Shown: one piece after another, positions 493 to 33,624 of the stretch | How positions within the stretch are numbered: position 1 is the first letter of the stretch | Layout of the letters: each line of letters opens with the position of its first letter | Virus record (IMG/VR): IMGVR_UViG_2531839474_000013 | Location: 1 to 33,624 of that record | Direction: 5' to 3' (one strand) | Length of the DNA: 33,624 bases | DNA from: a virus | Taxonomy: Duplodnaviria; Heunggongvirae; Uroviricota; Caudoviricetes | The notes under the pieces: model-generated | What the model saw: the letters and a program-made list of their open reading frames with translations, nothing else | The model's database searches: none | Told to the model about the DNA's origin: nothing | Translations under genes and position numbers: made by a program

Positions 493-833
493 CAGTGAGT
501 GACCTCTTCAAAGGTACAGTTAAAATCGGTATACATGGCATTATCCGAAATGCTCCACTCCCTGCAGACAACCCGGACAGTCCTGTTGTGTTTTGGCGGA
601 CGCCACAAAAAAGCACGAATCCCGGCATGACGGGATAAAAAACTGTCCAGCGCGGCACGGGAATATTCATCTGTGACACGAAATACCGGTTTAAACGTTT
701 TCAGATCCGCATTCAGACCACCAGCCCGTCGCTGTTCATATCCGTCACCGAACTTTACCGTAATAACAGATGGCTTTCGTGTCGTCTCCATCCCCTCGCG
801 GGGGATCCAGTTAAAAACTTCAGACTCAGGCAC
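492..833 (-). CDS. M: minor tail protein M (lambda gpM-like)
   Basis: VKFGDGYEQRRAGGLNADLKTF and FLWRPP motifs match lambda gpM. I place the start at GTG 833 (GGAGGA 7 nt upstream, overlapping the tape-measure stop), not at the track's TTG 878 or the internal ATG 791. Confidence 0.8.
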   Translation of the reverse strand: MPESEVFNWIPREGMETTRKPSVITVKFGDGYEQRRAGGLNADLKTFKPVFRVTDEYSRAALDSFLSRHAGIRAFLWRPPKHNRTVRVVCREWSISDNAMYTDFNCTFEEVTH

Positions 834-3800
834 TGCATAATCCTCCGTCCCGACGTGATGACTGCATAATTGACACAACCCTGCTGTCGATCAGTTCCAC
901 CAGCCCCCTGGCTGACTGCGTATCTATCTCGCCATTGCTCCCTTTATTCTGAATACTGATGTGATACACGGGAGAATAAACAAATCCCCCGCCACCATTC
1001 ACATTGCCAATGGCTCTGACTCCAAGAGAGCCGTCCGCTGCCCGGGTCAGTGGCATGATAGCTTCAGGCCCTGCCTCGCCCATCAGCCCGGCACCTTTCG
1101 CAAAAGCAAAATACGTCGGGGTATCCACAATGGTGTTACTGTAAGCACTCAGATTTGCCGATGTATAAACACCACCTTTTGCGTTTGCCACTGCACCGGA
1201 AAGCCAGTCGCCGACCGTACCAAGCCATCCTCCGGCACCGGACATGCTTTTGGAAAGTGACTTCAGCCCGTTAACGATGGCAGCGTTCATCAGAATTTTT
1301 GAAACTTCCTGGAGAATTGAACTCCCCCAGTTTCTCCAGTCCACAACATTTCCGGCCAGTGCATCGGAAATATTTGATACCAGCCCGTCCATAGTGGAAA
1401 CGACAGCATCTGCCGCCTGCGAAGCATAATCAGTGGCACTGTCTGCCCAGTTCGTCAGCCCCTCCTGGAGTCCGGCATTCCAGTTACTGCGTAAAGCATC
1501 GGCCTTTGCATAATAATCCTGCTGATCGCTGAGACGCTCTTCCAGATACTTTTCATTCAGCGATTTTTCCTGTTTCCACAGGGCTTCTTCAATTTCTCCG
1601 GCCTGATACTGTCTCAGCAGCTCGTTATTTTTCTGCTCAAACGCCTGCCGGATACTCCACATTTCCTGGAGTCGTTCACGCATCCGTGAGCCTTCACCAT
1701 ATCCCAGCAACTGCGCATCGTTAGACGCCCGGGCACTGGCATTACTGTCCGCCAGGCTGCTTTCATAAGCAGCAAGCTGCTCACGAATCTTTTTCTGGTC
1801 AATGAGTGCCGCATTCTGTAAAAGCGTTTTTTTCTGCGCTTCTGACAGAGTTGATAATTCGCCCTGACTGACCTGATATTTCACCCTGGCCAGTTCAGTA
1901 TTCTGCCCTGCCAGTGCTATTTGTTCTTTTTGCTGTTTAATCAGCCGTTTATAAATATCTTCTGTTTTTTCCGCTTCGGTCTTTTTATGTGTTTTAGGTT
2001 TATTTGCCTGGTTATTTCGCCAGGCATCCAGTGAGTTATTGATATAATTCTGTCTGGCTGCCTGATACGCCTCTCCCACAAAGCCGAGATCATCCGCAGC
2101 ATAACCCAGGCGGGCACGCTCACGGGCTTCCCCCTTCAGGCGGGACAGAGCCAGTTCACGCTCGCTATTATTCAGCGCAGTCTGCTGTTTATCATCCAGA
2201 ATGGCCTGTGGCAGCCGTAATGGTACATTCACCAGCCCCTGACGCTGCTGAAGTAACTCATTACCAAGCCCGAGAAGACGATTAAACTCGGTATGCTGCC
2301 CATTCATGATCAACAGGGACTGATACGCTTTGTTTTGTTCTGCCGCCTGTTGACGGATTAACGCCACCCGTCGCTCCTCCAGCCCGGCAAGCACATCCTG
2401 AATGGATTGCGCTTTGCCCTGCATTTGAGTGAGGCGAGACTGTTCAACTGCCAGTTGATTTGTTGCTTCTGCAAGCCCTTCTGTGACAGTTTTTACCGAC
2501 GTCATGTGGTTAATCATAAAACCGTTATCGGTTGTCCAGCCCGGGTTTGCCAGCACATACTGATAGCCAGCAATTTTTTCCTGTAAGGATTTGATCTTAC
2601 TTTTCTGCTCGTCAATTAACCTGTTTTGCTCATCAAGTGCCTGCCGCGTCTTTTCCTCATTATCTGACGTTTCAGGAAGCGACATTGCCGACGTTTTCTG
2701 GCGAATTTCGTCGATTGTTGCGGCATACTGGCGTGCAGATTCTCTGGCCTGCTCCTGATTCTGATACATCGTGTACCAGGCCGTAGCCCCCAGCATGACA
2801 AGCCCCGGCACACCACCAACCAGCCCCAGTGCCCCACTTAACAGACGACTCCCCACTGACGTGACATTATTCAGCGTTGTCTGTGCTGCTGTTCTGGCCG
2901 CAATATTACGGGTAAGTGACGCCTGGGCAGCAGCCAGTTTCGATTCTGCGGCTGCCTGCCTTTCGGTACCGCGAGCAGCAGCAACCGCCTGTTGCGCACG
3001 ATAAACCGCCGCACGCGCCCTGGCTGTTGCTATCTGCGTCCCCCGGAGCTGCGCTTCCGCAAGAGCCACTTCGTTTCTGGCTGCAGTAATTAATCCGGCA
3101 GTTGCAGATCCAGCAGAAGACGCCATATTGCCAAAATATCGGGCTACCCCGACGGCAACCAGAGCACCGGCAGCGGTTGCCACGGTGTCAATATTGCCTG
3201 CAAGACCATTCAGCACCCCGGAGAGCGTCTTCGTCACTCCGCTTGCCTCGTTCGCACCACCAACCCAGGCCATAAAGGCGTTTTCAACTTTGGTTGCAGA
3301 GGATGAAACCGTATCAGGCATTGCTGCATATTCATCACGCAACGCCCCAAGCTGACTAATCAGTGCAGGAACAACCTTATCGGCGGTCAGTTTTCCGTTA
3401 TCCGCCATGGCCTTCAGATCCTTACGGGCAACGCCCATTCCCGCGGCCAGCGCACGAATAACACGATCACCGCTCTCATTCACGGCGTTAAATTCTTCAC
3501 CGCGCAGCACTCCCTGCGCCAGTGCCTGGCTGAACTGCGTGATCACCGAACTGGCTTCTGCTGTACTGGCACCGGATAATTTCAGGCCCGTGGAGATCGC
3601 CTCGGTGACTTTCAGTACCTCCTCAGAACTGTAGCCATACTCCCGCATGGAAGCTGCAGAGCGGGCAAAAAGGCTGGCGTTATCAGAAAACGCCGTTCCC
3701 GTTCTCTGGCTGATTGCCATTAATTCACGTTGTGATACCTGAAAATCATCACTGGACTGTGAAGCCTGCTTCAGACGGGCATTTACTGAATTCCACTCAT

Positions 3801-4065
3801 CGGCGAGAGAAATAAGATGACCGGTAGCAAAAGCTCCGGCAAATGCCCCCGCCATATTCAGTGCCGAAGATTTAGCTGTATTTATCTGATCCGTCACTTC
3901 TGCCAGTGCACGCCGCATTTCACGGGATGCAGCAGCGGACTGCCGGCCTCCGTTCTGCATGGTACGGTAGTAATCCTGCCCCATACGCGAAGCCCGGGCG
4001 ATCTCTGACTGGAATGACCGGGAGTTTGCCGAGATTTTAATAATCAGTTCACGTAATGTCGCCAT
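826..4065 (-). CDS. tail tape measure protein
   Basis: 1079-aa largely helical, Ala/Gln-rich protein lying between the G/T chaperone genes and gpM/gpL, the canonical tape-measure position. Confidence 0.9.
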   Translation of the reverse strand: MATLRELIIKISANSRSFQSEIARASRMGQDYYRTMQNGGRQSAAASREMRRALAEVTDQINTAKSSALNMAGAFAGAFATGHLISLADEWNSVNARLKQASQSSDDFQVSQRELMAISQRTGTAFSDNASLFARSAASMREYGYSSEEVLKVTEAISTGLKLSGASTAEASSVITQFSQALAQGVLRGEEFNAVNESGDRVIRALAAGMGVARKDLKAMADNGKLTADKVVPALISQLGALRDEYAAMPDTVSSSATKVENAFMAWVGGANEASGVTKTLSGVLNGLAGNIDTVATAAGALVAVGVARYFGNMASSAGSATAGLITAARNEVALAEAQLRGTQIATARARAAVYRAQQAVAAARGTERQAAAESKLAAAQASLTRNIAARTAAQTTLNNVTSVGSRLLSGALGLVGGVPGLVMLGATAWYTMYQNQEQARESARQYAATIDEIRQKTSAMSLPETSDNEEKTRQALDEQNRLIDEQKSKIKSLQEKIAGYQYVLANPGWTTDNGFMINHMTSVKTVTEGLAEATNQLAVEQSRLTQMQGKAQSIQDVLAGLEERRVALIRQQAAEQNKAYQSLLIMNGQHTEFNRLLGLGNELLQQRQGLVNVPLRLPQAILDDKQQTALNNSERELALSRLKGEARERARLGYAADDLGFVGEAYQAARQNYINNSLDAWRNNQANKPKTHKKTEAEKTEDIYKRLIKQQKEQIALAGQNTELARVKYQVSQGELSTLSEAQKKTLLQNAALIDQKKIREQLAAYESSLADSNASARASNDAQLLGYGEGSRMRERLQEMWSIRQAFEQKNNELLRQYQAGEIEEALWKQEKSLNEKYLEERLSDQQDYYAKADALRSNWNAGLQEGLTNWADSATDYASQAADAVVSTMDGLVSNISDALAGNVVDWRNWGSSILQEVSKILMNAAIVNGLKSLSKSMSGAGGWLGTVGDWLSGAVANAKGGVYTSANLSAYSNTIVDTPTYFAFAKGAGLMGEAGPEAIMPLTRAADGSLGVRAIGNVNGGGGFVYSPVYHISIQNKGSNGEIDTQSARGLVELIDSRVVSIMQSSRRDGGLCSA

Positions 4066-4078
4066 TTACTTTAACCCA

Positions 4079-4106
4079 TAAAAAAACCGCTTCTGCGGTT
4101 TTTTAA
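4079..4106. terminator. bidirectional intrinsic terminator-like hairpin between the moron and the tape measure gene
   Basis: AAAAAAACCGCTTCTGCGGTTTTTT: a 6-bp GC-containing stem flanked by an A-run and a T-run. Confidence 0.6.
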
Positions 4107-4114
4107 GATGATAA

Positions 4115-4456
4115 TTATTGGCAAAACAACTTATATTTTTCCATACCGCCCGGGTCATGGTCATTAACAATTGTTACAGTTCCATGACTCTTAACTTTTC
4201 CGTCCACAACTTCCAAATAAACAAAATATGGTTTCTTCCCTGTATATCCACCAAACGTGTTTTTTGAATTGACATCTCCACAAACATAGCCATATAAATC
4301 ACCTGACTTATGGAAAAAAGAATTAAACTTTGCACTATCAGGATCAATAAGTTTATCTTTAACTAAGTCTTCCCCTAAAGAAATAACATAATTATCTGAT
4401 GGTTTACATGCACTAATAAAGAATATACAAGCCAATGTCACCACTAAATTTCTCAT
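4115..4456 (-). CDS. putative lipoprotein encoded by an AT-rich moron
   Basis: 113 aa. N-terminus MRNLVVTLACIFFISAC has a signal peptide and lipobox (ISAC). AGGAGG lies 7 nt upstream of the ATG. The segment is visibly AT-rich relative to the flanking tail genes. Confidence 0.7.
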   Translation of the reverse strand: MRNLVVTLACIFFISACKPSDNYVISLGEDLVKDKLIDPDSAKFNSFFHKSGDLYGYVCGDVNSKNTFGGYTGKKPYFVYLEVVDGKVKSHGTVTIVNDHDPGGMEKYKLFCQ

Positions 4457-4514
4457 AATTAACCCTCCTGAGTTTGAATAATATATTCAATTTCAAAACG
4501 ATTAATAAATTATC

Positions 4515-4826
4515 TTATAATGAAGACATTAGAGCAACCTCTAATCCAATAAATGGATCATCGCATTTATTTTCTTCAGAATCTTGCCCCCACTGAAGAA
4601 GCGCATCATTCAGTGGTACTTTGACCCCCTGCGCACCGTAAACCGCAGAAACTATCTGGGCAGCCCGGATATCAGCCCGTTCGTCCCCCAGCGGGCTGAA
4701 CCTGTCAAATTCTGCCCACATCATGATTTCTGATGCGGACATTTCCCGGCGTAACTCTGACAATGTGCGCCCCATCCTGAGCGCCAGCATCATCAGAAAA
4801 CGCATCCCCGGAAGCGCTACTTTTTT
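4515..4826 (-). CDS. tail assembly chaperone T-frame segment, expressed as a G-T fusion by -1 frameshift
   Basis: The ORF is in the -1 frame relative to the upstream chaperone gene and stays open from the slippery site A AAA AAG (4820..4826) through the track's ATG at 4805. Confidence 0.65.
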   Translation of the reverse strand, partial: KKVALPGMRFLMMLALRMGRTLSELRREMSASEIMMWAEFDRFSPLGDERADIRAAQIVSAVYGAQGVKVPLNDALLQWGQDSEENKCDDPFIGLEVALMSSL

Positions 4827-5203
4827 TTAACCTCGCCGGCATCACTGATCAGTTCCAGAGACTGCCGAAGAAGCCGCGCATGCACCGGGCCATACACGGC
4901 AATCACCTGTTCACGATCATCCTCTGAAAATACAGGTTGCAGTCCGGTATCACACAGAACATCAATGAACAGTTCAACATCTGCCTCCAGATTTCGGCGG
5001 GCGCGCTCCGCAACGGATAACGGTGTCTCATCATCTTTTGCTTTAACGATCTCCTGCCAGCGCAACCAGGCTTCTGCAGAAGGTTCCCGTAATACAACCG
5101 TTGCCCCTTCCCATTCAGGCACATCAACAGTTTTATGGCGAAACCCCGACATCGTTGCCAGTGCCAGATTACGGATATTTTTAGTCATCACATCTATCCT
5201 CAT
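4817..5203 (-). CDS. tail assembly chaperone (gpG-like)
   Basis: 128-aa acidic protein directly upstream of the tape measure region; ends ...EVKKK* on the slippery heptamer. Confidence 0.7.
   Translation of the reverse strand: MRIDVMTKNIRNLALATMSGFRHKTVDVPEWEGATVVLREPSAEAWLRWQEIVKAKDDETPLSVAERARRNLEADVELFIDVLCDTGLQPVFSEDDREQVIAVYGPVHARLLRQSLELISDAGEVKKK
4820..4826 (-). promoter_or_regulatory. programmed -1 ribosomal frameshift slippery heptamer (A AAA AAG)
   Basis: Minus-strand GTT AAA AAA AAG TAG at the end of the G-like ORF; the -1 frame continues into the T ORF without a stop. Confidence 0.6.
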
Positions 5204-5907
5204 TAACTGACGGTAACAGTGCAGGAAGTGGAGGTCACCTTGTTAACAGGGCTTGCTGAATCAGAAATCTCGCAGGTATACGCACCGGCATCACCGGATG
5301 CTGCTGATGCCTTACTGAACGTTGCCGCCGTCTGTCCGGAAACAGGAGAACCACCTTTCTTCCAGACATAAGAATAAGGCGGCACACCACCGGCAGCCTC
5401 AACCACCATTTCGAGTTTCGCTCCGGCAGAAACCTGCAGCGTGCTGTTTAAATCGACCTTCACTTTCAGCGGCTCTGTCGTCAGTACAGGTTTACCTTTC
5501 AGGCGCAGGGAAAACGTTGCAGCCACAACACCATTGGTTCCTGCAGACCAGGTATGCTGACGCACCTCTGCCATAAAGGTAAATCCGTTGCCTGACGGAA
5601 AAATAACTTTAAAGCCATACGTGGTGTCATTGTCATAGGCACTGCGCAACGCGTTCTGGGCAGCATTCAGATAAAAGTTGCCTGACATGGAAATCTCTGA
5701 CGCGGCACCAAGACCGTTAATATTTTCCTGCTCAACAGAACACAGCGTGGTGACATCAATATCCTGTTTCTGCCCGGCGGTAAACTGAACCTCTTTAATC
5801 GTACAGCTCAGTTCAAGAAAACTGGCAGAACTCAGCGTTTCTGCCGTTACCGGTGCAGACGAGATCATGACTTTGGTCTGCTGAGAACGTTCAAAATTAG
5901 AGGACAT
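5203..5907 (-). CDS. major tail protein with C-terminal Ig-like domain
   Basis: 234 aa, positioned between the head-tail joining genes and the G/T chaperones; Thr/Ser-rich beta-type C-terminus; AGGAGA ribosome-binding site. Confidence 0.75.
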   Translation of the reverse strand: MSSNFERSQQTKVMISSAPVTAETLSSASFLELSCTIKEVQFTAGQKQDIDVTTLCSVEQENINGLGAASEISMSGNFYLNAAQNALRSAYDNDTTYGFKVIFPSGNGFTFMAEVRQHTWSAGTNGVVAATFSLRLKGKPVLTTEPLKVKVDLNSTLQVSAGAKLEMVVEAAGGVPPYSYVWKKGGSPVSGQTAATFSKASAASGDAGAYTCEISDSASPVNKVTSTSCTVTVS

Positions 5908-14829: not shown

Positions 14830-15882
14830 TTATTTCCCCACCAGTTCACTTACCTCTTTCGCCGTCTGATTAAACCGCTCTGACTCAAGTTCAACACCTA
14901 ACGCCCGACGCCCCAGCGCCATTGCTGCTTTTATTGTGGAACCGGATCCCATAAAGAAATCAGCAACCAGATCACCAGGTCGACTACTGGCATTGATTAT
15001 TTGCCGGAGCATATCCGCCGGTTTCTCGCACGGATGTTTACCCGGGTAGAACTGAACGGGCTTATGCGTCCAGACATCGGTATAAGGCACGGAGACTGAT
15101 ACGGAGAAATAGCGCCGGAGAGATTTAAACTCATCCAGCAATTCAGAATATTTGCGATTCAGTGAATCATAAGATGCCACCAGCTGGTGGTGTGGTTGTT
15201 CCAGTTGTTGTTCCTGAAACTTCTCTGCCGCTATACGGGAAAACAGTGCCTGTAACTTCCGATAGTCAGCCTCATTCGGCAACTGCCACTGACTGGCACC
15301 AAACCAGTGGGAAACCATATTTTTCTTACCTGTGGCTTCGGCAATTTGTTTTGCCGTTATACCCAGTTCGGCACGAGCATCCCTGAAATACGATATCAGC
15401 GGTGCCATTATGTGCTGTTTGAGTTCCCTTTCTTTTGCCGCATAGCCGTCACTTTTGGGCTGATATGGTCCCTGATAATGTTCAGCAAACAGAATGCGTT
15501 CTGTTGCCGGGAAATACGCCCGCAGGCTTTCCTTGTTACACCCGTTCCAGCGCCCGGACGGTTTCGCCCAGATAATGTGATTCAGCACATTAAAGCGTTC
15601 ACGCATCATGATTTCGGTGTCAGATGCCAGGCGATGACCACAGAACAGGTAGAGACTTCCGGCAGGTTTCAGTACCCGCCAGAATTGCGCCAGACACTGA
15701 TCCAGCCATTTCAGGTAATCATCGTCGCCCTTCCACTGGTTATCCCAGCCCTCGGGCTTCACTTTAAAGTATGGCGGGTCTGTGACTATCAGATCGACAG
15801 AGTTTTCCGGTAAGGTCTGGATAAATTCCAGGCAATCAGCGTTGATTAACTCACAACTGGATATTTTTACAGTATTAACCAT
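14830..15882 (-). CDS. DNA N6-adenine/N4-cytosine methyltransferase, beta class, orphan
   Basis: N-terminal DPPY motif (VTDPPYF) and C-terminal FxGxG motif (FFMGSGST); no adjacent restriction endonuclease gene. Confidence 0.85.
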   Translation of the reverse strand: MVNTVKISSCELINADCLEFIQTLPENSVDLIVTDPPYFKVKPEGWDNQWKGDDDYLKWLDQCLAQFWRVLKPAGSLYLFCGHRLASDTEIMMRERFNVLNHIIWAKPSGRWNGCNKESLRAYFPATERILFAEHYQGPYQPKSDGYAAKERELKQHIMAPLISYFRDARAELGITAKQIAEATGKKNMVSHWFGASQWQLPNEADYRKLQALFSRIAAEKFQEQQLEQPHHQLVASYDSLNRKYSELLDEFKSLRRYFSVSVSVPYTDVWTHKPVQFYPGKHPCEKPADMLRQIINASSRPGDLVADFFMGSGSTIKAAMALGRRALGVELESERFNQTAKEVSELVGK

Positions 15883-19114: not shown

Positions 19115-19156
19115 ATGACTTTTTCTTTCTGTCATTTGTATACTCTAAAAATAGAG
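19115..19156 (+). promoter_or_regulatory. candidate promoter and palindromic operator of the toxin-antitoxin operon
   Basis: -35-like ATGACT, 18-nt spacer, -10 TATACT (19139..19144), then the palindrome CTCTAAAAATAGAG (19143..19156). Confidence 0.3.
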
Positions 19157-19258
19157 TGTTTTTTGAGCCGCCATTCCTTAGCAAGTCCTCTGTATGGATA
19201 TTGCCTGCCCTATTTAATTGTGTCACACTATGTATTACACAACGGTATGGAACCAAAC

Positions 19259-19630
19259 ATGCGCATTTTCAAAAATGCCTGGTTTGAACGCTTCGCACGA
19301 AAAAATCGGATTTCCGATAAAGCTCTGCGAGAAGTCGTGGAACTAGCTGATAAGGGACTCATATCCGCAGATTTGGGTAGTGGTGTCATTAAGCAGCGAT
19401 TAGCCCGAAGAGGTGGCGGTAAATCAGGCGGTTATAGGACAATAATTTTTTACCGCGTCGCAGAAAAGGCTTTTTTCATCTATGCGTACGCAAAGAATGA
19501 GAGAGAAAATATTACAGCCATCGAGGAAAACGCATTTCGAAAAGCTGCGCATCACGTTCTCAATCTTACTGATGAACAACTGGCGCAATTGATCCTGCAA
19601 GGTCAGTTTACGGAGGTACCCAATGAGTAA
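19259..19630 (+). CDS. type II toxin, RelE/ParE superfamily (HigB-2-like)
   Basis: GSGVIKQRLARRGGGKSGGYRTIIFY...YAKNERENI resembles V. cholerae HigB-2. Start placed at ATG 19259; the track's ORF from 19115 has a long, implausible leader. Toxin gene precedes the antitoxin. Confidence 0.75.
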   Translation: MRIFKNAWFERFARKNRISDKALREVVELADKGLISADLGSGVIKQRLARRGGGKSGGYRTIIFYRVAEKAFFIYAYAKNERENITAIEENAFRKAAHHVLNLTDEQLAQLILQGQFTEVPNE

Positions 19631-19940
19631 AAATTACCGCAGTGATGCACTTGCATCCGTACATGAAATGATGGAGTCACTTCAGGATATTGGCGCAGTT
19701 ACAAAACAAACTATGAGAGAGTTTGATGAACTCTGTCTGCAACCAGCGCCAACAATGTCGCCAGAAAGAATCCGGGCACTTCGCGAGCGCGAGCATCTGT
19801 CTCAACCTGTTTTCGCCAGATATCTTAATGTCAGTAAAAACCTCATTTCAGACTGGGAAAGGGGAATAAAGCGCCCTGGTGGCCCTGCCCTTCGTTTGCT
19901 TTCTGTGGTTGAGAAAAACGGAATTCAGTCAATCTGTTAA
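19623..19940 (+). CDS. HTH-XRE antitoxin (HigA-2-like)
   Basis: 105 aa; C-terminal HTH SQPVFARYLNVSKNLISDWERGIKRP; overlaps the toxin stop by 8 nt. Confidence 0.75.
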   Translation: MSKNYRSDALASVHEMMESLQDIGAVTKQTMREFDELCLQPAPTMSPERIRALREREHLSQPVFARYLNVSKNLISDWERGIKRPGGPALRLLSVVEKNGIQSIC

Positions 19941-22246: not shown

Positions 22247-23134
22247 TCAGGCTGCCAGATCATCGTTTCTGATGGAAGCATAATAAGCTTTTTCTGCTTC
22301 TGCCGGAGGGATATGACCCAGCCTTCCCAGCAATCGTCGATTGTTATACCAGTCCACCCACGTGAGTGTGGCCAGTTCCACTTCTGCACGGTTTTTCCAG
22401 CTCTTACGGTGTATTACCTCCGCTTTGTAAAGACCATTGATGCTCTCCGCCATCGCGTTGTCATACGAGTCACCTGTACTCCCTGTTGATGCCAGCAGTT
22501 TTGCTTCTTTTAGTCGCTCCGTATAGGCCAGTGATACATACTGAGAACCTTTATCACTGTGATGGACTGTGCCGGACGGCCGACGGGCCCACAACGCCTG
22601 CTCCAGTGCATCCAGCACGAATGTCGTTTCCATAGACGATGAGACTCGCCACCCCACGATACATCCGGCAAACACATCAATGATGAACGCCACATAGACG
22701 AAGCCCTGCCATGTGCTGACGTAAGTAAAATCAGCCACCCACAGCTGGTCAGGACGTTCTGCCACGAACTGACGGTTTACGCGGTCGCCTGCGGAAACGG
22801 CTTTCCGGCTGACGGTAGTACGGACCTTTTTACCCCGGAGAACACCGGCAAGTCCCATAACCGCCATGAGGCGCGCCACTGTACATCTGGCCACCCTGAT
22901 ACCTTCGCGTAACAACTGGCGCCAGACTTTACGCACACCGTACACCTGATGATTTTCATCGTATACGCGCTGTATCTCTCTCTTCAGCCAGTCATCGCGC
23001 TGAGCACGGGCACTGCGTTTATCAGGATGATGTCGCTGTTGCTGACAGTGGTAATACGTTGACGGGGCAATATGCAGTTCACTGCATACCGGTCCGACCC
23101 CGTACTGCTCACGCAGCTTATCCAGCAGCGGCAT
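22247..23134 (-). CDS. IS3-family transposase OrfB (DDE catalytic domain)
   Basis: 295 aa with integrase-core-like motifs (ADFTYV, HSDKGSQY, DNAMAES); in the -1 frame relative to orfA. Confidence 0.9.
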   Translation of the reverse strand: MPLLDKLREQYGVGPVCSELHIAPSTYYHCQQQRHHPDKRSARAQRDDWLKREIQRVYDENHQVYGVRKVWRQLLREGIRVARCTVARLMAVMGLAGVLRGKKVRTTVSRKAVSAGDRVNRQFVAERPDQLWVADFTYVSTWQGFVYVAFIIDVFAGCIVGWRVSSSMETTFVLDALEQALWARRPSGTVHHSDKGSQYVSLAYTERLKEAKLLASTGSTGDSYDNAMAESINGLYKAEVIHRKSWKNRAEVELATLTWVDWYNNRRLLGRLGHIPPAEAEKAYYASIRNDDLAA

Positions 23135-23460
23135 TATTTTTTCCAGAGGCGGTCGAACTCCGCCTTCGCAAAATAAGCGGAAGCCTGGCGAAGGATATCG
23201 TTACTGCGGCGCAGTTCACGATTTTCACGTTCCAGCTCTTTCAGACGCTGACGTTCAGCGGTGGTGAGTCCACCATCACCACTCCCGGTATCCCGCTCAT
23301 GCTGACGAACCCACACACGCAGAGTCTCTGGTGTACAGCCAATCTTTGGGGCAATGGAACAAATTGCCGCCCATTGTGAGTCATATTCGCCCTGACTTTC
23401 CAGAACCATACGAACTGCCCGTTGACGGACCTCGGGGGAAAAACGTGTATTTTTAGTCAT
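23134..23460 (-). CDS. IS3-family transposase OrfA (HTH domain)
   Basis: 108 aa with HTH and leucine-zipper-like C-terminus; ends TGG AAA AAA TAA, where orfB continues in the -1 frame. Confidence 0.9.
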
Positions 23461-28704: not shown

Positions 28705-29265
28705 TTCATCCTCCTGAGGGTTAGTAATTAAGGAGTTCTCCACGGGTGAGGTGGAGTGCGTGCGCCGGACACGGGTGAGCATCCGGCACTGACAGTTTAC
28801 TGAAAGGATATCTCCCTGAAAAGTCAGGGCATAACGCGAAAGCGCACGGCGAAGTTGTTGGTTCATAGATAGCCTGTCGTTAAATTTTCGTCGACCGTGC
28901 GCTTCCGGTTGTGGCACTCCGCGAAATGGCGCGGCGGTAAGTATGGCGGGGTTATTCCTTCCCCGTTGAGGACACCGGGTTGTCAGGTTGACCATACGCT
29001 TAAGTGACAACCCCGCTGCAACGCCCTCTGTTATCAATTTTCTGGTGACGTTTGGCGGTATCAGTTTTACTCCGTGACTGCTCTGCCGCCCTTTTTAAAG
29101 TGAATTTTGTGATGCGGTGAATGCGGCTAAGCGCACGAGGAACAGTTAAAACCAAAAACAGTGTTATGGGTGGATTCTCTGTATCCGGCGTTAATTGTTA
29201 ACTGGTTAACGTCACCTGGAGGCACCAGGCACTGCATCACAAAATTCATTGTTGAGGACGCGATA

Positions 29266-29734: not shown

Positions 29735-32206
29735 ATGAGTAAAGTCTTTATTTGCGCCGCCATTCCGGACGAACAGGCAATAAAGGAAGAAGGTGCAGTC
29801 GCTGTAGCCACTGCCATTGAAGCCGGTGATGAACGTCGCGCCCGCGCAAAATTTCACTGGCAATTCCTGGAACATTATCCGGCTGCTCAGGACTGCGCTT
29901 ATAAATTTATTATCTGCGAGGATAAACCTGGCATACCCCGCCCTGCCCTCGATTCATGGGATGCTGAATATATGCAGGAAAACCGCTGGGATGAGGATTC
30001 TGCTTCTTTTGTCCCGGTTGAGACTGAATCCGATCTGATGAACGTCACTTTTGACAAGCTGGCCCCTGAAGTACAGAACGCTGTCATGGTTAAGTTCGAC
30101 ACATGTGAAAACATCACCGTTGATATGGTGATTAGCGCGCAGGAATTGTTGCAGGAAGACATGGCAACATTCGACGGACATATCGTTGAAGCGTTGATGA
30201 AAATGCCAGAAGTTAACGCCATGTATCCGGAGCTTAAGCTGCATGCCATCGGGTGGGTTAAGCATAAATGTAAGCCTGGTGCCAAATGGCCCGAAATTCA
30301 GGCAGAGATGCGCATCTGGAAAAAACGTCGCGAAGGTGAACGCAAGGAAACCGGAAAATACACGTCTGTTGTTGATCTCGCCCGCGCCAGAGCCAATCAA
30401 CAGAACACTGAAAATTCAACAGGAAAAATCAGCCCGGTCATTGCTGCCACTCATCGCGAATACAAGCAGACATGGAAAACACTGGATGACGAACTGGCCT
30501 ACGCTCTCTGGCCTGGTGATGTGGATGCCGGAAACATTGACGGCAGCATCCATCGCTGGGCAAAAAATGAAGTTATCGACAACGACCGCGAAGACTGGAA
30601 GCGTATCTCGGCATCAATGCGCAAACAGCCTGATGCCCTTCGCTACGACCGCCAGACTATTTTTGGCCTTGTCCGTGAACGTCCGATCGACATTCACAAA
30701 GACCCCATAGCACTGAACAAATACATCACCGAATACCTGACGACAAAGGGCGTGTTTGAAAATGAAGAAACAAACCAGAGCACAACTGATACTCTCCAGT
30801 CACCAGAAACACAAACTGATGCAGTGGAAACGGAAATACCGGACAACCAAAAAAACGAAACCAAACCGGAAGCCGAACCATCTGTAGAGCGTGAAGGGCC
30901 GTTCTACTTCCTCTCCACAGACAAGGACAGAGAAAAATACGGTCGCGCAAACAAACTTTCTGGTCTGGATAAGGCACTGGCTGCAGGCGCCACTGAAATC
31001 ACAAAAGAAGAATATTTCGCCCGAAAAAACGGCACATACACAGGCTCACAACAAAATACAGATACAGCTGAAAAGACAGAACAACCAGAGCCGATAAAAG
31101 TTACCGCTGACGAAGTAAACAAAATTATGCAGGCAGCCAATATCAGCCAGCCTGACGCCGATAAGTTGCTTGCTGCATCACGTGGTGAATTTATTGAAGG
31201 GATTAGCGACCCGAATGATCCGAAATGGATTAAGGGGATCCAGACCCGCGATACTGTGAACCAGAACCAGCAAGAAACGGAACAGAACGACCAAAAAGCG
31301 GAACAAAACAGCCCAAATACGCAACAAAACGAGCCAGAAACGAAACAACCTGAACCAGTAGTGCAACAGGAACCGGAAAAAATCTGCACCGCCTGCGGTC
31401 AGACCGGCGGCGGCAACTGCCCTGATTGTGGCGCGGTGATGGGCGACGCAACATACCAGGAAACATTCGATGAAGAGAATCAGCCTGAAGTTCAGGAAAA
31501 TGATCCGGAGGAAATGGAAGGCACTGAACATCAACACAAGGAGAACACTGGCGGCAATCAGCATCACAATAGCGATAATGAAACTGGCGAGACGGCAGAT
31601 CACTCAATTAAGGCGAACGGTCATCAAAAAATCACATCCACCAGCAGAACGGGGAACCATCTAATGATCGACCTTGAAACCATGGGAAAAAATCCCGATG
31701 CCCCGATCATCTCAATAGGTGCAATATTTTTCGATCCGCAAACCGGAGATATGGGACCGGAATTTAGTAAGACTATCGATCTGGAAACTGCTGGCGGAGT
31801 CATTGATCGGGACACCATTAAATGGTGGCTTAAGCAATCACGCGAAGCGCAATCTGCCATTATGACCGATGAAATCCCGTTAGATGATGCACTGTTACAA
31901 TTGCGGGAATTTATCGACGAAAACTCCGGTGAATTTTTTGTTCAGGTCTGGGGAAATGGAGCCAACTTCGACAACACGATTTTGCGCCGTTCATACGAAC
32001 GGCAGGGGATCCCCTGCCCGTGGCGTTACTACAACGATCGCGATGTACGCACAATCGTTGAGCTGGGGAAAGCCATAGACTTCGATGCCAGAACGGCTAT
32101 TCCATTCGAAGGTGAGCGCCATAATGCACTTGATGACGCCCGTTACCAGGCAAAATACGTTTCAGTTATCTGGCAAAAACTGATCCCGAGTCAGGCTGAT
32201 TTTTAA
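29735..32206 (+). CDS. large phage exonuclease: N-terminal region of unknown function, low-complexity linker with C4 zinc ribbon, C-terminal DEDDh 3'-5' exonuclease domain
   Basis: 823 aa. C-terminal motifs IDLETMG (Exo I), [12 protein letters not shown] (Exo II), HNALDDARY (Exo III). Linker is Q/E/N/T-rich with [16 protein letters not shown]. Lies in the exo position upstream of xis and int. Confidence 0.8.
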
Positions 32207-32267: not shown

Positions 32268-32537
32268 ATGAGCGAACAGTACCTGATAACGCTCGACGAG
32301 TGGAAACCAAAACGGTTCAGTCTCCCAATAACAAACACTACCCTGGTGAAATACGGAAAACTAGGATACATCGTTCCAAGGCCACAAAAAATTCGTGGGC
32401 GTTGGCTGATAGATCGCCGAGCAGTATTTGTTGGGCCTGGTGAAACGGGAATTGCGCCGGAAATTCATACTGGCGATGATGATGCACTGAAGGAGATTTT
32501 AACTCATGTCACCGAGGCCACGAAAAAACAGCACTGA
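32268..32537 (+). CDS. xis: excisionase-like protein
   Basis: Begins MSEQYLITLDEW, similar to lambda Xis MYLTLQEW; immediately upstream of and overlapping int; GGAGTGA ribosome-binding site. Confidence 0.65.
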   Translation: MSEQYLITLDEWKPKRFSLPITNTTLVKYGKLGYIVPRPQKIRGRWLIDRRAVFVGPGETGIAPEIHTGDDDALKEILTHVTEATKKQH

Positions 32538-33624
32538 CGTAGCCGGTCTTTACGAAAAGTTTGATCGCAGAACTGGCAGAGTTTACTACCAGTATAAAAA
32601 TCCTGTGACTGGAAAATTTCACGGACTCGGAACAGACAAAGGTAAGGCAGAAAAAATCGCTTCCACAGCCAATCAGCGAATAGCTGCAGCAGAAGCTGAA
32701 TATTTCATGCGCAAAATTGATGAAAGTCCGTCAGCAACAAAACGTCGGGGTATCAGATTAAAGGCATGGGTTGATCGATATCTGAAAATACAGGACACAC
32801 GACTGAAAAATGGAGATATTGCAGCTACAACTCACAAAGAAAAAACTCGAATGGCTGCATACCTGGTTTCCCGTCTGGGAAACCACCCATTGAAAGAACT
32901 GGAAGTAAGAGACTTTGCATTAATACTGGATGAGTGGCTGGATAAAGACATGGTCAGCACAGCGAGAGTAAATCGTGGATTATGGGTTGATATTTATAAA
33001 GAAGCACAGCATGCAGGGGAAGTTCCTCCTGGATGGAATCCTCCGGAGGCTACCCGTAAACCGATCCCTAAAGTAACCAGAGCCAGGCTCACCATGGAAG
33101 ACTGGCAAAAAATTTACAATGCAACGCCTGAAAAACACTTTATCCGTAACGCAATGCTTCTTGCGATTGTTACTGGTCAGCGCCGTGATGACATTTGCCA
33201 CATGCGTTTTTCAGATGTGTGGAACGAACACTTGCATATCACCCAGGGAAAAACCGGAATGCGTCTGGCGTTACCGCTTACACTACGCTGTGATGCCATT
33301 GGGATAACGTTAAAAGAAGTTATTGATGGGTGCCGAGACAGAATATTAAGTCCATATCTAATCCATAGTCGGCACCAGAAACAACCGAAGCCGATGAGTA
33401 AAGACAACCTGAGCGACTACTTTGCCAAAGCACGGGATCTGGCTGGGATAATTCCACCAGCAGGAAAAACTCCGCCAACATTTCATGAACAACGCTCTCT
33501 ATCAGAACGGCTGTACCGTGCACAGGGTATCGATACAAAAACATTACTAGGACATAAAGTCCAGGCAACCACCGATCGCTATAACGATACTCGAGGTCAG
33601 GAATGGGTTAAGTTGGTTATTTGA
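32506..33624 (+). CDS. int: tyrosine integrase, lambda Int family
   Basis: 372 aa; C-terminal HEQRSLSERLY...LLGHK...DRYNDTRGQEW matches the lambda Int catalytic region; AAGGAGA upstream; stop at 33622..33624, so the attachment site should lie just beyond the window. Confidence 0.9.
   Translation: MSPRPRKNSTDVAGLYEKFDRRTGRVYYQYKNPVTGKFHGLGTDKGKAEKIASTANQRIAAAEAEYFMRKIDESPSATKRRGIRLKAWVDRYLKIQDTRLKNGDIAATTHKEKTRMAAYLVSRLGNHPLKELEVRDFALILDEWLDKDMVSTARVNRGLWVDIYKEAQHAGEVPPGWNPPEATRKPIPKVTRARLTMEDWQKIYNATPEKHFIRNAMLLAIVTGQRRDDICHMRFSDVWNEHLHITQGKTGMRLALPLTLRCDAIGITLKEVIDGCRDRILSPYLIHSRHQKQPKPMSKDNLSDYFAKARDLAGIIPPAGKTPPTFHEQRSLSERLYRAQGIDTKTLLGHKVQATTDRYNDTRGQEWVKLVI

What the first reader, a model, noticed from the sequence alone, without database searches (positions are those of the whole stretch)
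4079..4514. AT-rich lipoprotein moron between the tail chaperone genes and the tape measure gene
A 113-aa predicted lipoprotein (signal peptide plus lipobox ISAC) sits in a block that is markedly more AT-rich than the tail genes around it. It has a strong ribosome-binding site and its own terminator hairpin. This is the locus where HK97 carries its gp15 moron, which encodes a superinfection-exclusion membrane protein, but the protein here is unrelated in sequence and is a lipoprotein. It is a candidate lysogenic-conversion or exclusion factor.
Basis: partly seen in the sequence, partly recalled or inferred. Interest (0 to 1): 0.55.

Follow-up and report, generated by a model that had tools for sequence, protein, structure and literature searches.

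The report
Lipoprotein cargo gene in phage tail operon
A small, AT-rich accessory gene for an outer-membrane lipoprotein sits between the tail-chaperone and tape-measure genes of an E. coli prophage; it belongs to a large uncharacterised family that recurs in phage tail operons and most plausibly protects the host cell against other phages, though this is untested.

Summary
A 113-aa ORF (4115-4456, minus strand) has a signal peptide, the lipobox ISAC (Cys17, Lys at +2), an AGGAGG ribosome-binding site and a downstream hairpin with a T-run. It lies in the lowest-GC stretch of the window (0.32 against 0.49).

About 98% of E. coli prophages with the same tail module (885 of 903 genomes), and 11 isolated phages, lack the block. 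It is therefore dispensable cargo, in the slot where HK97 carries gp15.

Three corrections:
- The variable block runs about 4066-4590 and includes the last ~25 codons of gene T.
- The hairpin also stands before the tape-measure gene in relatives with an empty slot or other cargo, so it is not the gene's own.
- Low GC marks the whole family, and the gene has diverged in step with its tail genes, so it does not indicate recent arrival.

The family is large (8,461 clusters), has no Pfam model and no studied member found. Members sit co-oriented in several tail-operon gaps. The confident AlphaFold model shows a small cystatin/NTF2-like fold unlike known exclusion proteins.

A role in superinfection exclusion at the cell envelope is the best guess (about 0.5) and is untested.

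The parts
4115..4456 (-). Lipoprotein gene, 113 aa; mature protein about 97 aa
   Evidence: ORF and translation. Matches PHROG 2320 at E = 2.9e-32. dN/dS 0.09. AlphaFold2 mean pLDDT 87.9.
4406..4456 (-). Signal peptide (codons 1-16) plus the lipobox cysteine Cys17 (ISA|C); Lys at +2 predicts sorting to the outer membrane
   Evidence: Read directly from the sequence. A16, C17, K18, P19 and S20 are invariant in alignment A2. The +2 sorting rule is established knowledge; lipidation was not tested.
4464..4469 (-). Shine-Dalgarno sequence AGGAGG, 7 nt upstream of the ATG
   Evidence: Read directly from the sequence.
4080..4104 (-). Terminator-like hairpin A6-CCGC-AGAA-GCGG-T7, 14 nt upstream of the TMP start codon
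   Evidence: Fold -11.7 to -13.1 kcal/mol, z = -3.5. An equivalent hairpin with a T-run stands upstream of TMP in all 10 slot versions compared, including the empty one.
4066..4590 (.). The whole variable, AT-rich cassette that differs from relatives with an empty slot
   Evidence: Alignment with phage Evi. GC 0.317, the minimum of the window.
4515..4590 (-). 3' end of gene T (last ~25 codons) that travels with the cassette. It is homologous to the Evi version but diverged and AT-rich.
   Evidence: The T proteins are identical up to residue 72 and then diverge. GC is 0.346 here against 0.549 for the rest of T. The zinc-ribbon cassette also has its own version of this T end.
4509..4537 (-). Candidate sigma-70 promoter TTGCTC-17 nt-GATAAT (8 of 12), conserved in both E. 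coli alleles. Weak and unproven.
   Evidence: My own scan. The tool's scan at a threshold of 9 of 12 found nothing on this strand upstream of the ORF.
4515..4805 (-). Tail assembly chaperone T (frameshift partner of G), the upstream flank
   Evidence: Pfam Phage_tail_T, E = 1.4e-18.
4817..5203 (-). Tail assembly chaperone G
   Evidence: Pfam Phage_TAC_1, E = 2.8e-58.
826..4065 (-). Tape measure protein, the downstream flank
   Evidence: Pfam Phage_HK97_TLTM (6.3e-95), TMP_3 and Tape_meas_lam_C.

Best explanation
This is a dispensable cargo cassette (a moron) in the T|TMP gap of an HK97-type tail operon in a lambdoid E. coli prophage.

The gene is made as a prolipoprotein. [quoted passage not shown] There it would display a ~97-residue disulfide-pinned alpha/beta domain in the periplasm.

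Most likely function: superinfection exclusion. The protein would stop incoming siphophages while they cross the envelope, in one of two ways:
- obstructing the passage or channel formation by the tail tip and tape-measure protein through the periplasm, as HK97 gp15 and TP-J34 Ltp do (about 0.3);
- locking an outer-membrane receptor from its periplasmic face, as T5 Llp does (about 0.25; also listed separately as the first rival explanation).

Expression would come from late-operon read-through during lytic growth, and probably from a weak promoter of its own in the lysogen.

Shown here: the gene, its lipoprotein signals, its dispensability, its slot, purifying selection, and family-wide residence in tail operons.
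Inferred: lipidation, outer-membrane location, the disulfide, expression in the lysogen, and the exclusion function.

The confidence of 0.5 refers to the exclusion function by either route. The anatomy itself is near certain.
For: Dispensable cargo:
- The block is absent from 11 isolated phages and from about 98% of the 903 E. coli genomes that carry the same tail module.
- The same slot holds HK97 gp15, a proven exclusion protein, or an unrelated protein with two hydrophobic segments and a zinc ribbon in 45 genomes.

Envelope protein under selection:
- Lipobox cysteine Cys17, Cys59 and Cys112 are invariant in close relatives. Cys59 is invariant and Cys112 nearly so in distant ones.
- dN/dS is 0.09.
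- The structure model is confident, mean pLDDT 87.9.

Linkage to tail operons:
- Of the 80 best IMG/VR loci, 36 lie just upstream of TMP, 6 just downstream of TMP and 21 between K and I or J. Every flanking tail-gene match is on the same strand as the gene.
- Relatives at 37-57% identity from Citrobacter, Salmonella and Cronobacter and from an unassigned read-assembly contig, and more distant relatives in phage ES18 and a Klebsiella phage, sit in the identical T|TMP slot.

Moron hallmarks across the family:
- All 80 loci have lower GC than their flanks, mean difference -0.139.
- 49 of 79 have a hairpin with a T-run after the stop codon, against 9 of 363 random windows.
- GTGACA-16/18 nt-TAGGAT/TAGCAT/GATAAT promoter-like pairs lie 26-29 nt before the ATG in three relatives. 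Related pairs with a TAGGAT -10 box occur in others.

Precedent:
- Lipoprotein genes inside the structural clusters of mEpimmI coliphages exclude phages when expressed from a plasmid (PMC11893012).
- T5 Llp is an outer-membrane lipoprotein that binds FhuA (abstract seen).

Retention: three of four prophages with the 93% allele have broken structural genes, yet all four keep an intact, identical lipoprotein gene.
Against: - No experiment bears on this protein, and no member of its family was found in the literature searched.
- There is no PADLOC, Pfam or NCBIfam match.
- The most conserved residues (D38, F44, C59, G60, K65, N66, Y71, G73) are shared with proteins from actinobacterial phages and with non-phage chromosomal genes. 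That fits a generic scaffold or a universal envelope ligand better than a phage-specific target.
- The predicted promoter for this copy is weak, 8 of 12.
- Adjacency to TMP may only reflect where insertions are tolerated.
Confidence: 0.5

Rival explanations
1. Receptor inactivation specifically, in the manner of Llp or Cor. The lipoprotein binds the periplasmic face of the outer-membrane receptor used by the resident phage's J protein and blocks adsorption or triggering. This is the second sub-mechanism of the best explanation, rated separately here.
For: - Every exclusion lipoprotein of Gram-negative hosts whose mechanism I know of works this way: Llp (abstract) and Cor; this is from my own knowledge.
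- 21 of 80 viral loci place the gene between K and I or J, next to the receptor-binding module.
- The two E. coli alleles go with two different J C-terminal types.
Against: - The two alleles differ at only 3 mature residues, yet their J C-termini are only 57-62% identical.
- The same clade accompanies three different tail-tip architectures.
- The core motif is conserved into phages of Mycobacterium and Gordonia, which lack these receptors.
- There is no sequence or fold similarity to Llp, Cor or Bor families.
Confidence: 0.25
2. A host-envelope or fitness factor unrelated to phage exclusion. Examples would be a peptidoglycan-associated or envelope-stress protein, serum resistance in the manner of Bor, or an inhibitor of a periplasmic enzyme.
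For: - The superfamily is very large (8,461 clusters) and includes non-phage chromosomal members.
- Some relatives carry C-terminal SPOR or SH3_3 cell-wall-binding domains.
- The conserved Asn/Lys/Tyr/Gly-rich loop could bind a glycan.
- The cystatin-like fold is used by protease inhibitors.
- Other homologues sit among lysogeny-side cargo: next to an acetyltransferase in PAJU2, a polymorphic-toxin cassette in a M. abscessus prophage, and the repressor region in Alcaligenes.
Against: - The strong, co-oriented association with siphophage tail operons (63 of 80 loci) is hard to explain for a function unrelated to phage infection.
- The gene is rare in E. coli, 18 of 5,426 genomes.
Confidence: 0.2
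3. A lytic-cycle helper expressed only with the late operon. It could protect progeny virions from being lost on receptor-bearing debris, or tune lysis, with no role in the lysogen.
For: - The gene has the same orientation as the late tail operon in every locus whose flanking genes could be identified.
- No strong promoter of its own is predicted here.
- From my own knowledge, Llp has this second role in T5.
Against: - The gene is retained intact in prophages whose structural genes are broken.
- Relatives have promoter-like pairs and terminators.
- Relatives in P2-like, PAJU2 and Alcaligenes prophages lie outside late operons.
Confidence: 0.08
4. A chance ORF or a decaying remnant with no function.
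For: AT-rich DNA readily yields open reading frames and promoter-like or hairpin-like motifs.
Against: - dN/dS is 0.09.
- Cysteines and motifs are invariant across 37 diverse relatives.
- There are 8,461 homologous clusters.
- The structure model is confident.
Confidence: 0.01

Closest known systems
HK97 gp15 moron (YebO-like superinfection-exclusion protein)
   Same: Exactly the same slot, between chaperone T and the tape-measure gene. It has an AGGAGG-type ribosome-binding site, a hairpin with a T-run, and a similar TATGGGT..A..ATGG junction just before the TMP start. It is absent from most relatives and encodes a small envelope protein.
   Different: gp15 is a 62-aa inner-membrane protein with one transmembrane helix and no lipobox. 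No sequence similarity was detected. Here the product is a predicted outer-membrane lipoprotein with a folded periplasmic domain.
ES18 gp20 ('possible moron; function unknown')
   Same: A true homologue: 41% identity over 57% of the query (tblastn E = 6e-8). It lies directly upstream of the ES18 tape-measure gene and is followed by an annotated terminator.
   Different: It is longer (151 aa, with an N-terminal extension after the lipobox) and sits among two further putative morons. It is equally uncharacterised.
T5 Llp and phi80/N15 Cor (FhuA-blocking outer-membrane lipoproteins)
   Same: Small phage-encoded lipoproteins linked to tail or receptor-binding genes, providing a mechanism of exclusion from the periplasmic side of the outer membrane (abstract).
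   Different: No Pfam family matched the protein at all. Neither appears among the structural matches. The protein here is larger and belongs to a far wider family that extends beyond phages.
mEpimmI phage Lpp lipoproteins (PMC11893012)
   Same: Lipoprotein genes embedded in the structural gene cluster of temperate coliphages, shown to exclude phages when expressed.
   Different: No mEp phage appears among the 40 listed of 43 phage records matched by tblastn, so there is no sign of homology. The receptor dependence shown for those proteins is unknown here.
TP-J34 Ltp (Streptococcus thermophilus)
   Same: A prophage lipoprotein that blocks DNA injection (abstract). From my own knowledge its target is the tape-measure protein, which makes it the conceptual model for a TMP-directed lipoprotein.
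   Different: It acts in a Gram-positive host and, from my own knowledge, has a helical repeat fold. No such matches appeared in the fold searches.
Lambda Bor / Iss
   Same: A prophage-encoded outer-membrane lipoprotein acting as a lysogenic-conversion factor.
   Different: No Pfam Bor match, and a different genomic position.

Membership tests
Phage moron (definition of Juhala/Hendrix, as quoted in PMC3594210) | Inserted between two genes that are adjacent in related phages | tested here: met
   T and TMP are 40 nt apart in phage Evi. Eleven phages and about 885 of 903 E. coli genomes lack the block.
Phage moron (definition of Juhala/Hendrix, as quoted in PMC3594210) | Nucleotide composition differs from the surrounding genes | tested here: met
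   GC 0.317 against about 0.50-0.55 in the flanks, the lowest of the window. The same holds in all 80 viral loci.
Phage moron (definition of Juhala/Hendrix, as quoted in PMC3594210) | Own promoter | tested here: inconclusive
   Only 8-of-12 matches in this copy. Better GTGACA-N16-18-TAGGAT/TAGCAT/GATAAT pairs occur in relatives. No transcript data are available.
Phage moron (definition of Juhala/Hendrix, as quoted in PMC3594210) | Own terminator | tested here: inconclusive
   The hairpin with T-run is present, but an equivalent hairpin precedes TMP in the empty and other-cargo versions too.
Phage moron (definition of Juhala/Hendrix, as quoted in PMC3594210) | Expressed from the repressed prophage | not testable with these tools
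   Needs RNA-seq or 5'-RACE of a lysogen.
Bacterial lipoprotein (signal peptidase II substrate) | Charged N-region, hydrophobic region, then lipobox [LVI][ASTVI][GAS]C | tested here: met
   MRN-LVVTLACIFF-ISAC. The cysteine is invariant. A lipobox-like motif is found in at least 61 of 80 viral relatives.
Bacterial lipoprotein (signal peptidase II substrate) | Lipidation and globomycin-sensitive processing; outer-membrane sorting | not testable with these tools
   Only the +2 rule (Lys, not Asp) can be read from the sequence.
HK97 gp15 / YebO family | Sequence similarity to the gp15/YebO N-terminal transmembrane helix | tested here: not met
   BLASTP finds no alignment at E <= 100.
Known lipoprotein or exclusion families with Pfam models (Bor and, from my own knowledge of Pfam, Rz1 and TraT) | Match to the family profile | tested here: not met
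   No Pfam family at E <= 0.1. No NCBIfam family at E <= 1.
Known anti-phage defence systems (PADLOC-DB v2) | Match to any defence-protein model | tested here: not met
   No family at E <= 1.
PHROG 2320 (phage protein family, unknown function) | Profile match over the full length | tested here: met
   E = 2.9e-32, residues 3-113.
Cystatin-like / NTF2-like fold (includes VirB8-type periplasmic domains) | Helix packed on a curved antiparallel sheet, with significant structural similarity | tested here: inconclusive

The most novel reading that the evidence does not exclude
The gene is a member of a large, unrecognised family of membrane-anchored extracytoplasmic phage proteins. The family has a cystatin/NTF2-like domain with a conserved DP.SA.F...CG.VNAKN..GGY.G loop and a disulfide. 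It has lived for a long time inside siphophage tail operons. In this reading it blocks genome delivery by acting on a universal envelope component such as peptidoglycan, not on a specific receptor. That would explain its conservation from enterobacterial to mycobacterial phages and its occasional fusion to SPOR or SH3 cell-wall-binding domains. It would be a new mechanistic class of superinfection exclusion.
Probability: 0.12. Interest if true: 0.7.

Novelty: new variant of a known kind. Interest (0 to 1): 0.42.

Why it matters
Tail-operon morons are a known source of host-protective genes, but few have been assigned a function. This one marks a family with thousands of members, no Pfam model and no studied representative. 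It occupies the historic HK97 gp15 slot and three other tail-operon gaps.

If it excludes phages, it would add a widespread envelope-level defence family relevant to phage host range and phage therapy. It would also give a tractable E. coli model: a 342-bp gene with natural carrier and non-carrier prophages that are about 98% identical in the flanking tail genes.

The survey also shows two wider points. The T|TMP junction behaves as a cassette site bounded by a conserved hairpin. Persistent low GC in a moron need not mean recent acquisition.

Tried and rejected
Family and defence libraries. Pfam, NCBIfam and PADLOC scans of the protein gave nothing. A Pfam scan of 37 diverse relatives found only accessory SPOR, SH3_3 and a weak thioredoxin-like hit, and nothing for the core domain.

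Literature. Three searches found no study of this family. The Salmonella lysogen transcriptome paper does not cover a homologue.

Consensus scans. The terminator scan missed the hairpin. The promoter scan found nothing at 9 of 12 or better on the coding strand upstream of the ORF.

Ideas considered and rejected:
- That the hairpin is the moron's own terminator. It is present in empty slots.
- That the block is a recent foreign insertion. Its divergence tracks that of G, T and TMP across genera.
- That it is homologous to gp15 or to the zinc-ribbon cargo.
- That it is a structural or assembly protein. It carries an export signal and is absent from viable phages.

Co-variation with J. The test gave an ambiguous result: two alleles go with two J types, but the proteins are nearly identical.

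Other searches. Rfam shows no known RNA in the block. A blastn search in distant mode found no further diverged copies in E. coli.

Full report
**1. Observation.**
The minus strand carries a 113-codon ORF at 4115-4456. It sits between tail-chaperone gene T (4515-4805, Pfam Phage_tail_T) and the tape-measure gene (826-4065, Pfam Phage_HK97_TLTM). Chaperone G (4817-5203) and the major tail protein lie further upstream.

The product begins MRNLVVTLACIFFISAC|KPSD. This gives a basic N-terminus, a hydrophobic stretch and the lipobox ISAC, with Lys at +2. A perfect AGGAGG lies 7 nt before the ATG.

After the stop codon, 4080-4104 forms A6-CCGC-AGAA-GCGG-T7. It folds at -11.7 to -13.1 kcal/mol with z = -3.5, and no shuffle out of 200 folds as well. 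It lies 14 nt before the TMP start codon. The consensus terminator scanner did not report it. I think this is because the A/T extension of the stem uses up the T-run.

GC values are as follows:

| Segment | GC |
|---|---|
| ORF | 0.327 (GC3 0.246) |
| Upstream spacer | 0.224 |
| Block 4066-4592 | 0.317 |
| TMP | 0.525 |
| G | 0.501 |
| Rest of T | 0.549 |

Sliding 527-nt windows over all 33.6 kb average 0.491 (sd 0.042), and their minimum falls on this block.

**2. It is cargo, and the slot is a cassette site.**
Eleven isolated E. coli phages (Evi, phi467 and others) match both flanks at 97.4-98.7% identity but span about 1,397 nt where the window spans 1,801 nt. In Evi, T and TMP are 40 nt apart.

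Alignment places the non-homology between the TMP start codon (ATG here, GTG in Evi) and about 4590, inside T. The two T proteins are identical to residue 72 and then diverge while staying alignable. The cassette therefore carries its own AT-rich version of the last ~25 T codons.

Among 5,426 complete E. coli genomes, 903 hold this tail module and only 18 hold the block. Seven of these are 100% identical and eleven are about 93% identical. All are chromosomal and in the same slot.

The same slot carries an unrelated 113-aa protein with two hydrophobic segments and a CPYC...CKHC zinc ribbon in 45 genomes. It carries HK97 gp15 in 6 genomes.

HK97 gp15 lies in this gap, followed by an annotated terminator (PMC3594210).

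In all ten slot versions compared there is a GC-stem hairpin with a T-run 12-22 nt before the TMP start codon. The ten versions are this gene, four relatives at 52-57% identity, ES18, a Klebsiella phage, HK97 gp15, the zinc-ribbon cargo and the empty Evi slot. The stems vary: CCGC/GCGG, CCCGC/GCGGG, GCCC/GGGC. The hairpin is thus a property of the slot and not of this gene.

**3. The protein.**
Eleven close relatives keep A16-C17-K18-P19-S20, C59 and C112 invariant.

A profile search of 1.84 billion cluster representatives found 8,461 hits at E <= 1e-3. A further word-indexed search found 761 at E <= 1e-5. All are annotated as hypothetical protein, lipoprotein or SPOR-domain protein.

Across 37 diverse members, C59 is invariant. 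D38, F44, G60, K65, N66, Y71, G73 and C112 are nearly so. Together they form the motif DP.SA.F...CG.VNAKN..GGY.G...C.

No Pfam, NCBIfam or PADLOC model matches. PHROG 2320, of unknown function, matches at 2.9e-32.

AlphaFold2 gives mean pLDDT 87.9, and above 93 for the mature domain. The order of elements is helix 21-33, four strands, then helix 102-112. The conserved Cys59 (strand 2) and Cys112 (end of the last helix) probably form a disulfide, which would fit a periplasmic location. This is an inference.

**4. Where relatives live.**

| Slot | Relatives found there |
|---|---|
| T\|TMP | Citrobacter (two clades), Salmonella, Cronobacter, an unassigned read-assembly contig (P0022), ES18 gp20 ('possible moron'), Klebsiella phage ST899-OXA48phi17.2 |
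| TMP\|M | Pantoea |
| M\|L | Pectobacterium |
| K\|I | phages Fraca and LMessi (LMessi context not inspected), Xenorhabdus, Pseudomonas phage AUS531phi (fused to SPOR) |
| Outside tail operons | between ogr and int in P2-like SEN4/SEN5; near an acetyltransferase in PAJU2; beside a polymorphic-toxin cassette in a M. abscessus prophage; near the repressor in an Alcaligenes prophage |
| Non-phage chromosome | one distant relative |

In IMG/VR, 411 of the first 600 pattern matches encode a relative. The best 80 loci split as follows:

| Position of the gene | Loci |
|---|---|
| Just upstream of TMP | 36 |
| Between K and I or J | 21 |
| Just downstream of TMP | 6 |
| P2-like D/ogr side | 3 |
| Unclassified | 14 |

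Every flanking tail-gene match is on the same strand as the gene.

All 80 loci have lower GC than their flanks, mean difference -0.139. A hairpin with a T-run follows the stop codon in 49 of 79, against 9 of 363 random windows.

Several relatives have a promoter-like pair 26-31 nt before the ATG. It reads GTGACA or CTGACC, then 16-18 nt, then TAGGAT, TAGCAT or GATAAT. This copy has only 8-of-12 matches, for example TTGCTC-17-GATAAT at 4509-4537, which is kept in both E. coli alleles.

**5. Evolution.**
Between the two E. coli alleles, dN = 0.024 and dS = 0.271, so dN/dS = 0.09. Fifteen differing codons are synonymous and six are not, and only three of those six fall in the mature protein.

Across seven loci, identity of the lipoprotein to the window copy tracks that of its tail-module neighbours:

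| Protein | Identity to the window copy across seven loci (%) |
|---|---|
| Lipoprotein | 95, 57, 52, 57, 53, 40, 48 |
| G | 99, 61, 54, 64, 57, 47, 52 |

T and TMP follow a similar pattern. This fits long co-inheritance with the tail module and not repeated recent import. Low GC therefore looks like a maintained feature of the family.

Prophages with the two alleles have J C-termini only 57-62% identical. Within the 93% allele group they are 88-95% identical. The clade also accompanies three different tail-tip architectures. This argues mildly against a receptor-matched blocker.

Three of four prophages with the 93% allele have disrupted structural genes, yet all four keep an identical intact lipoprotein gene.

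**6. Mechanism.**
Shown: a selected, exported-looking small lipoprotein gene that is dispensable for virion production. It is embedded and co-oriented in the tail operon, in a slot that elsewhere holds a proven exclusion gene.

Inferred: lipidation, outer-membrane anchoring (from Lys at +2), a periplasmic disulfide-stabilised domain, expression by late read-through and perhaps a weak promoter of its own, and a role in blocking envelope crossing by incoming siphophages.

My ratings are:

| Reading | Probability |
|---|---|
| Exclusion overall | about 0.5 |
| - periplasmic or TMP-stage block, as for gp15 and Ltp | about 0.3 |
| - receptor inactivation, as for Llp or Cor | about 0.25 |
| Envelope or fitness role unrelated to phages | about 0.2 |
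| Late-only helper | about 0.08 |
| No function | about 0.01 |

The envelope or fitness rival rests on the size of the superfamily, its chromosomal members, the SPOR and SH3 fusions and the deeply conserved loop.

**7. Comparison and novelty.**
The kind of element is well known: a tail-operon moron encoding an envelope protein. The slot is the textbook one. The cargo is a family with no curated model and no characterised member, unrelated to gp15, Llp, Cor, Bor or Ltp by sequence or fold. I file it as a new variant of a known kind, of moderate interest. It is an attractive and cheap experimental target, but it is not surprising to a specialist.

**8. Window context.**
The window is most of a lambdoid prophage:
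- HK97-type head and tail genes and terminase;
- a DNA methylase at 14830-15882;
- a RelE-like gene at 19115-19630;
- an IS3-family element at 22247-23460;
- an exonuclease-domain protein at 29735-32206;
- an integrase at 32506-33624.

Rfam finds an ALIL pseudoknot and DicF RNA. No tRNA genes were found.

Noticed in passing
L010:915-1256 (E. coli JNEC-KY173), equivalent to window slot 4066-4514: A different 113-aa cargo occupies the same T|TMP slot in 45 complete E. coli genomes. It has two hydrophobic segments plus a CPYC...CKHC zinc ribbon, brings its own version of the T 3' end, and keeps the Evi-type hairpin. Its function is unknown.
   Followed up: partly
window 4080-4104; L001:2085-2104; L031:399-423 and others (alignment A5): A GC hairpin with a T-run lies 12-22 nt upstream of the tape-measure start codon in all ten HK97-type tail modules compared, whether the slot is empty or filled. 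Stem sequences vary. It may attenuate TMP transcription or mark the site where cassettes are exchanged.
   Followed up: partly
window 22247-23460 (minus strand): An IS3-family insertion sequence lies in the early region of the prophage. Its parts are orfA at 23134-23460, an rve-domain orfB at 22247-23134, and the ALIL frameshift pseudoknot at 23063-23179.
   Followed up: no
window 29040-29091 (plus strand): DicF antisense small RNA (Rfam RF00039, 76.7 bits) lies in the early region of the prophage.
   Followed up: no
window 19115-19940 (plus strand): A RelE-family toxin-like gene (171 aa) and an adjacent 105-aa ORF lie on the strand opposite to the surrounding phage genes. This is a possible toxin-antitoxin cargo.
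   Followed up: no
L002:4355-4690 (phage Fraca): In Fraca, the homologue in the K|I slot is followed 7 nt later by a second, unrelated predicted lipoprotein (MKKIILPIFIFLLMGC|SVSS..., 111 aa). This makes a two-lipoprotein cassette.
   Followed up: no
L032, L034, L035 (E. coli 377323_2f, F719, MS8345): Prophages carrying the 93% allele are often defective. One has IS21 inside the TMP gene. Others have frameshifts in the protease and portal genes or in gp10. All retain an identical intact lipoprotein gene (WP_071605788.1).
   Followed up: partly
L031:5514-5834 (HK97, between K and I): The HK97 K|I gap holds an unannotated 32-aa hydrophobic ORF (5561-5659) and an annotated terminator. This is the same gap where Fraca and 21 of 80 viral loci carry a homologue of the lipoprotein, so it appears to be another cargo slot.
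   Followed up: no
L009:3568-4545 (E. coli PK8241, beyond the tail fibre genes; outside the window): In a genome with a 100%-identical copy of the block, the prophage lies next to a tRNA-Ser gene near hyaABC. Remnants of type III effector genes (EspV, EspF-repeat) lie downstream of its tail fibre genes.
   Followed up: no
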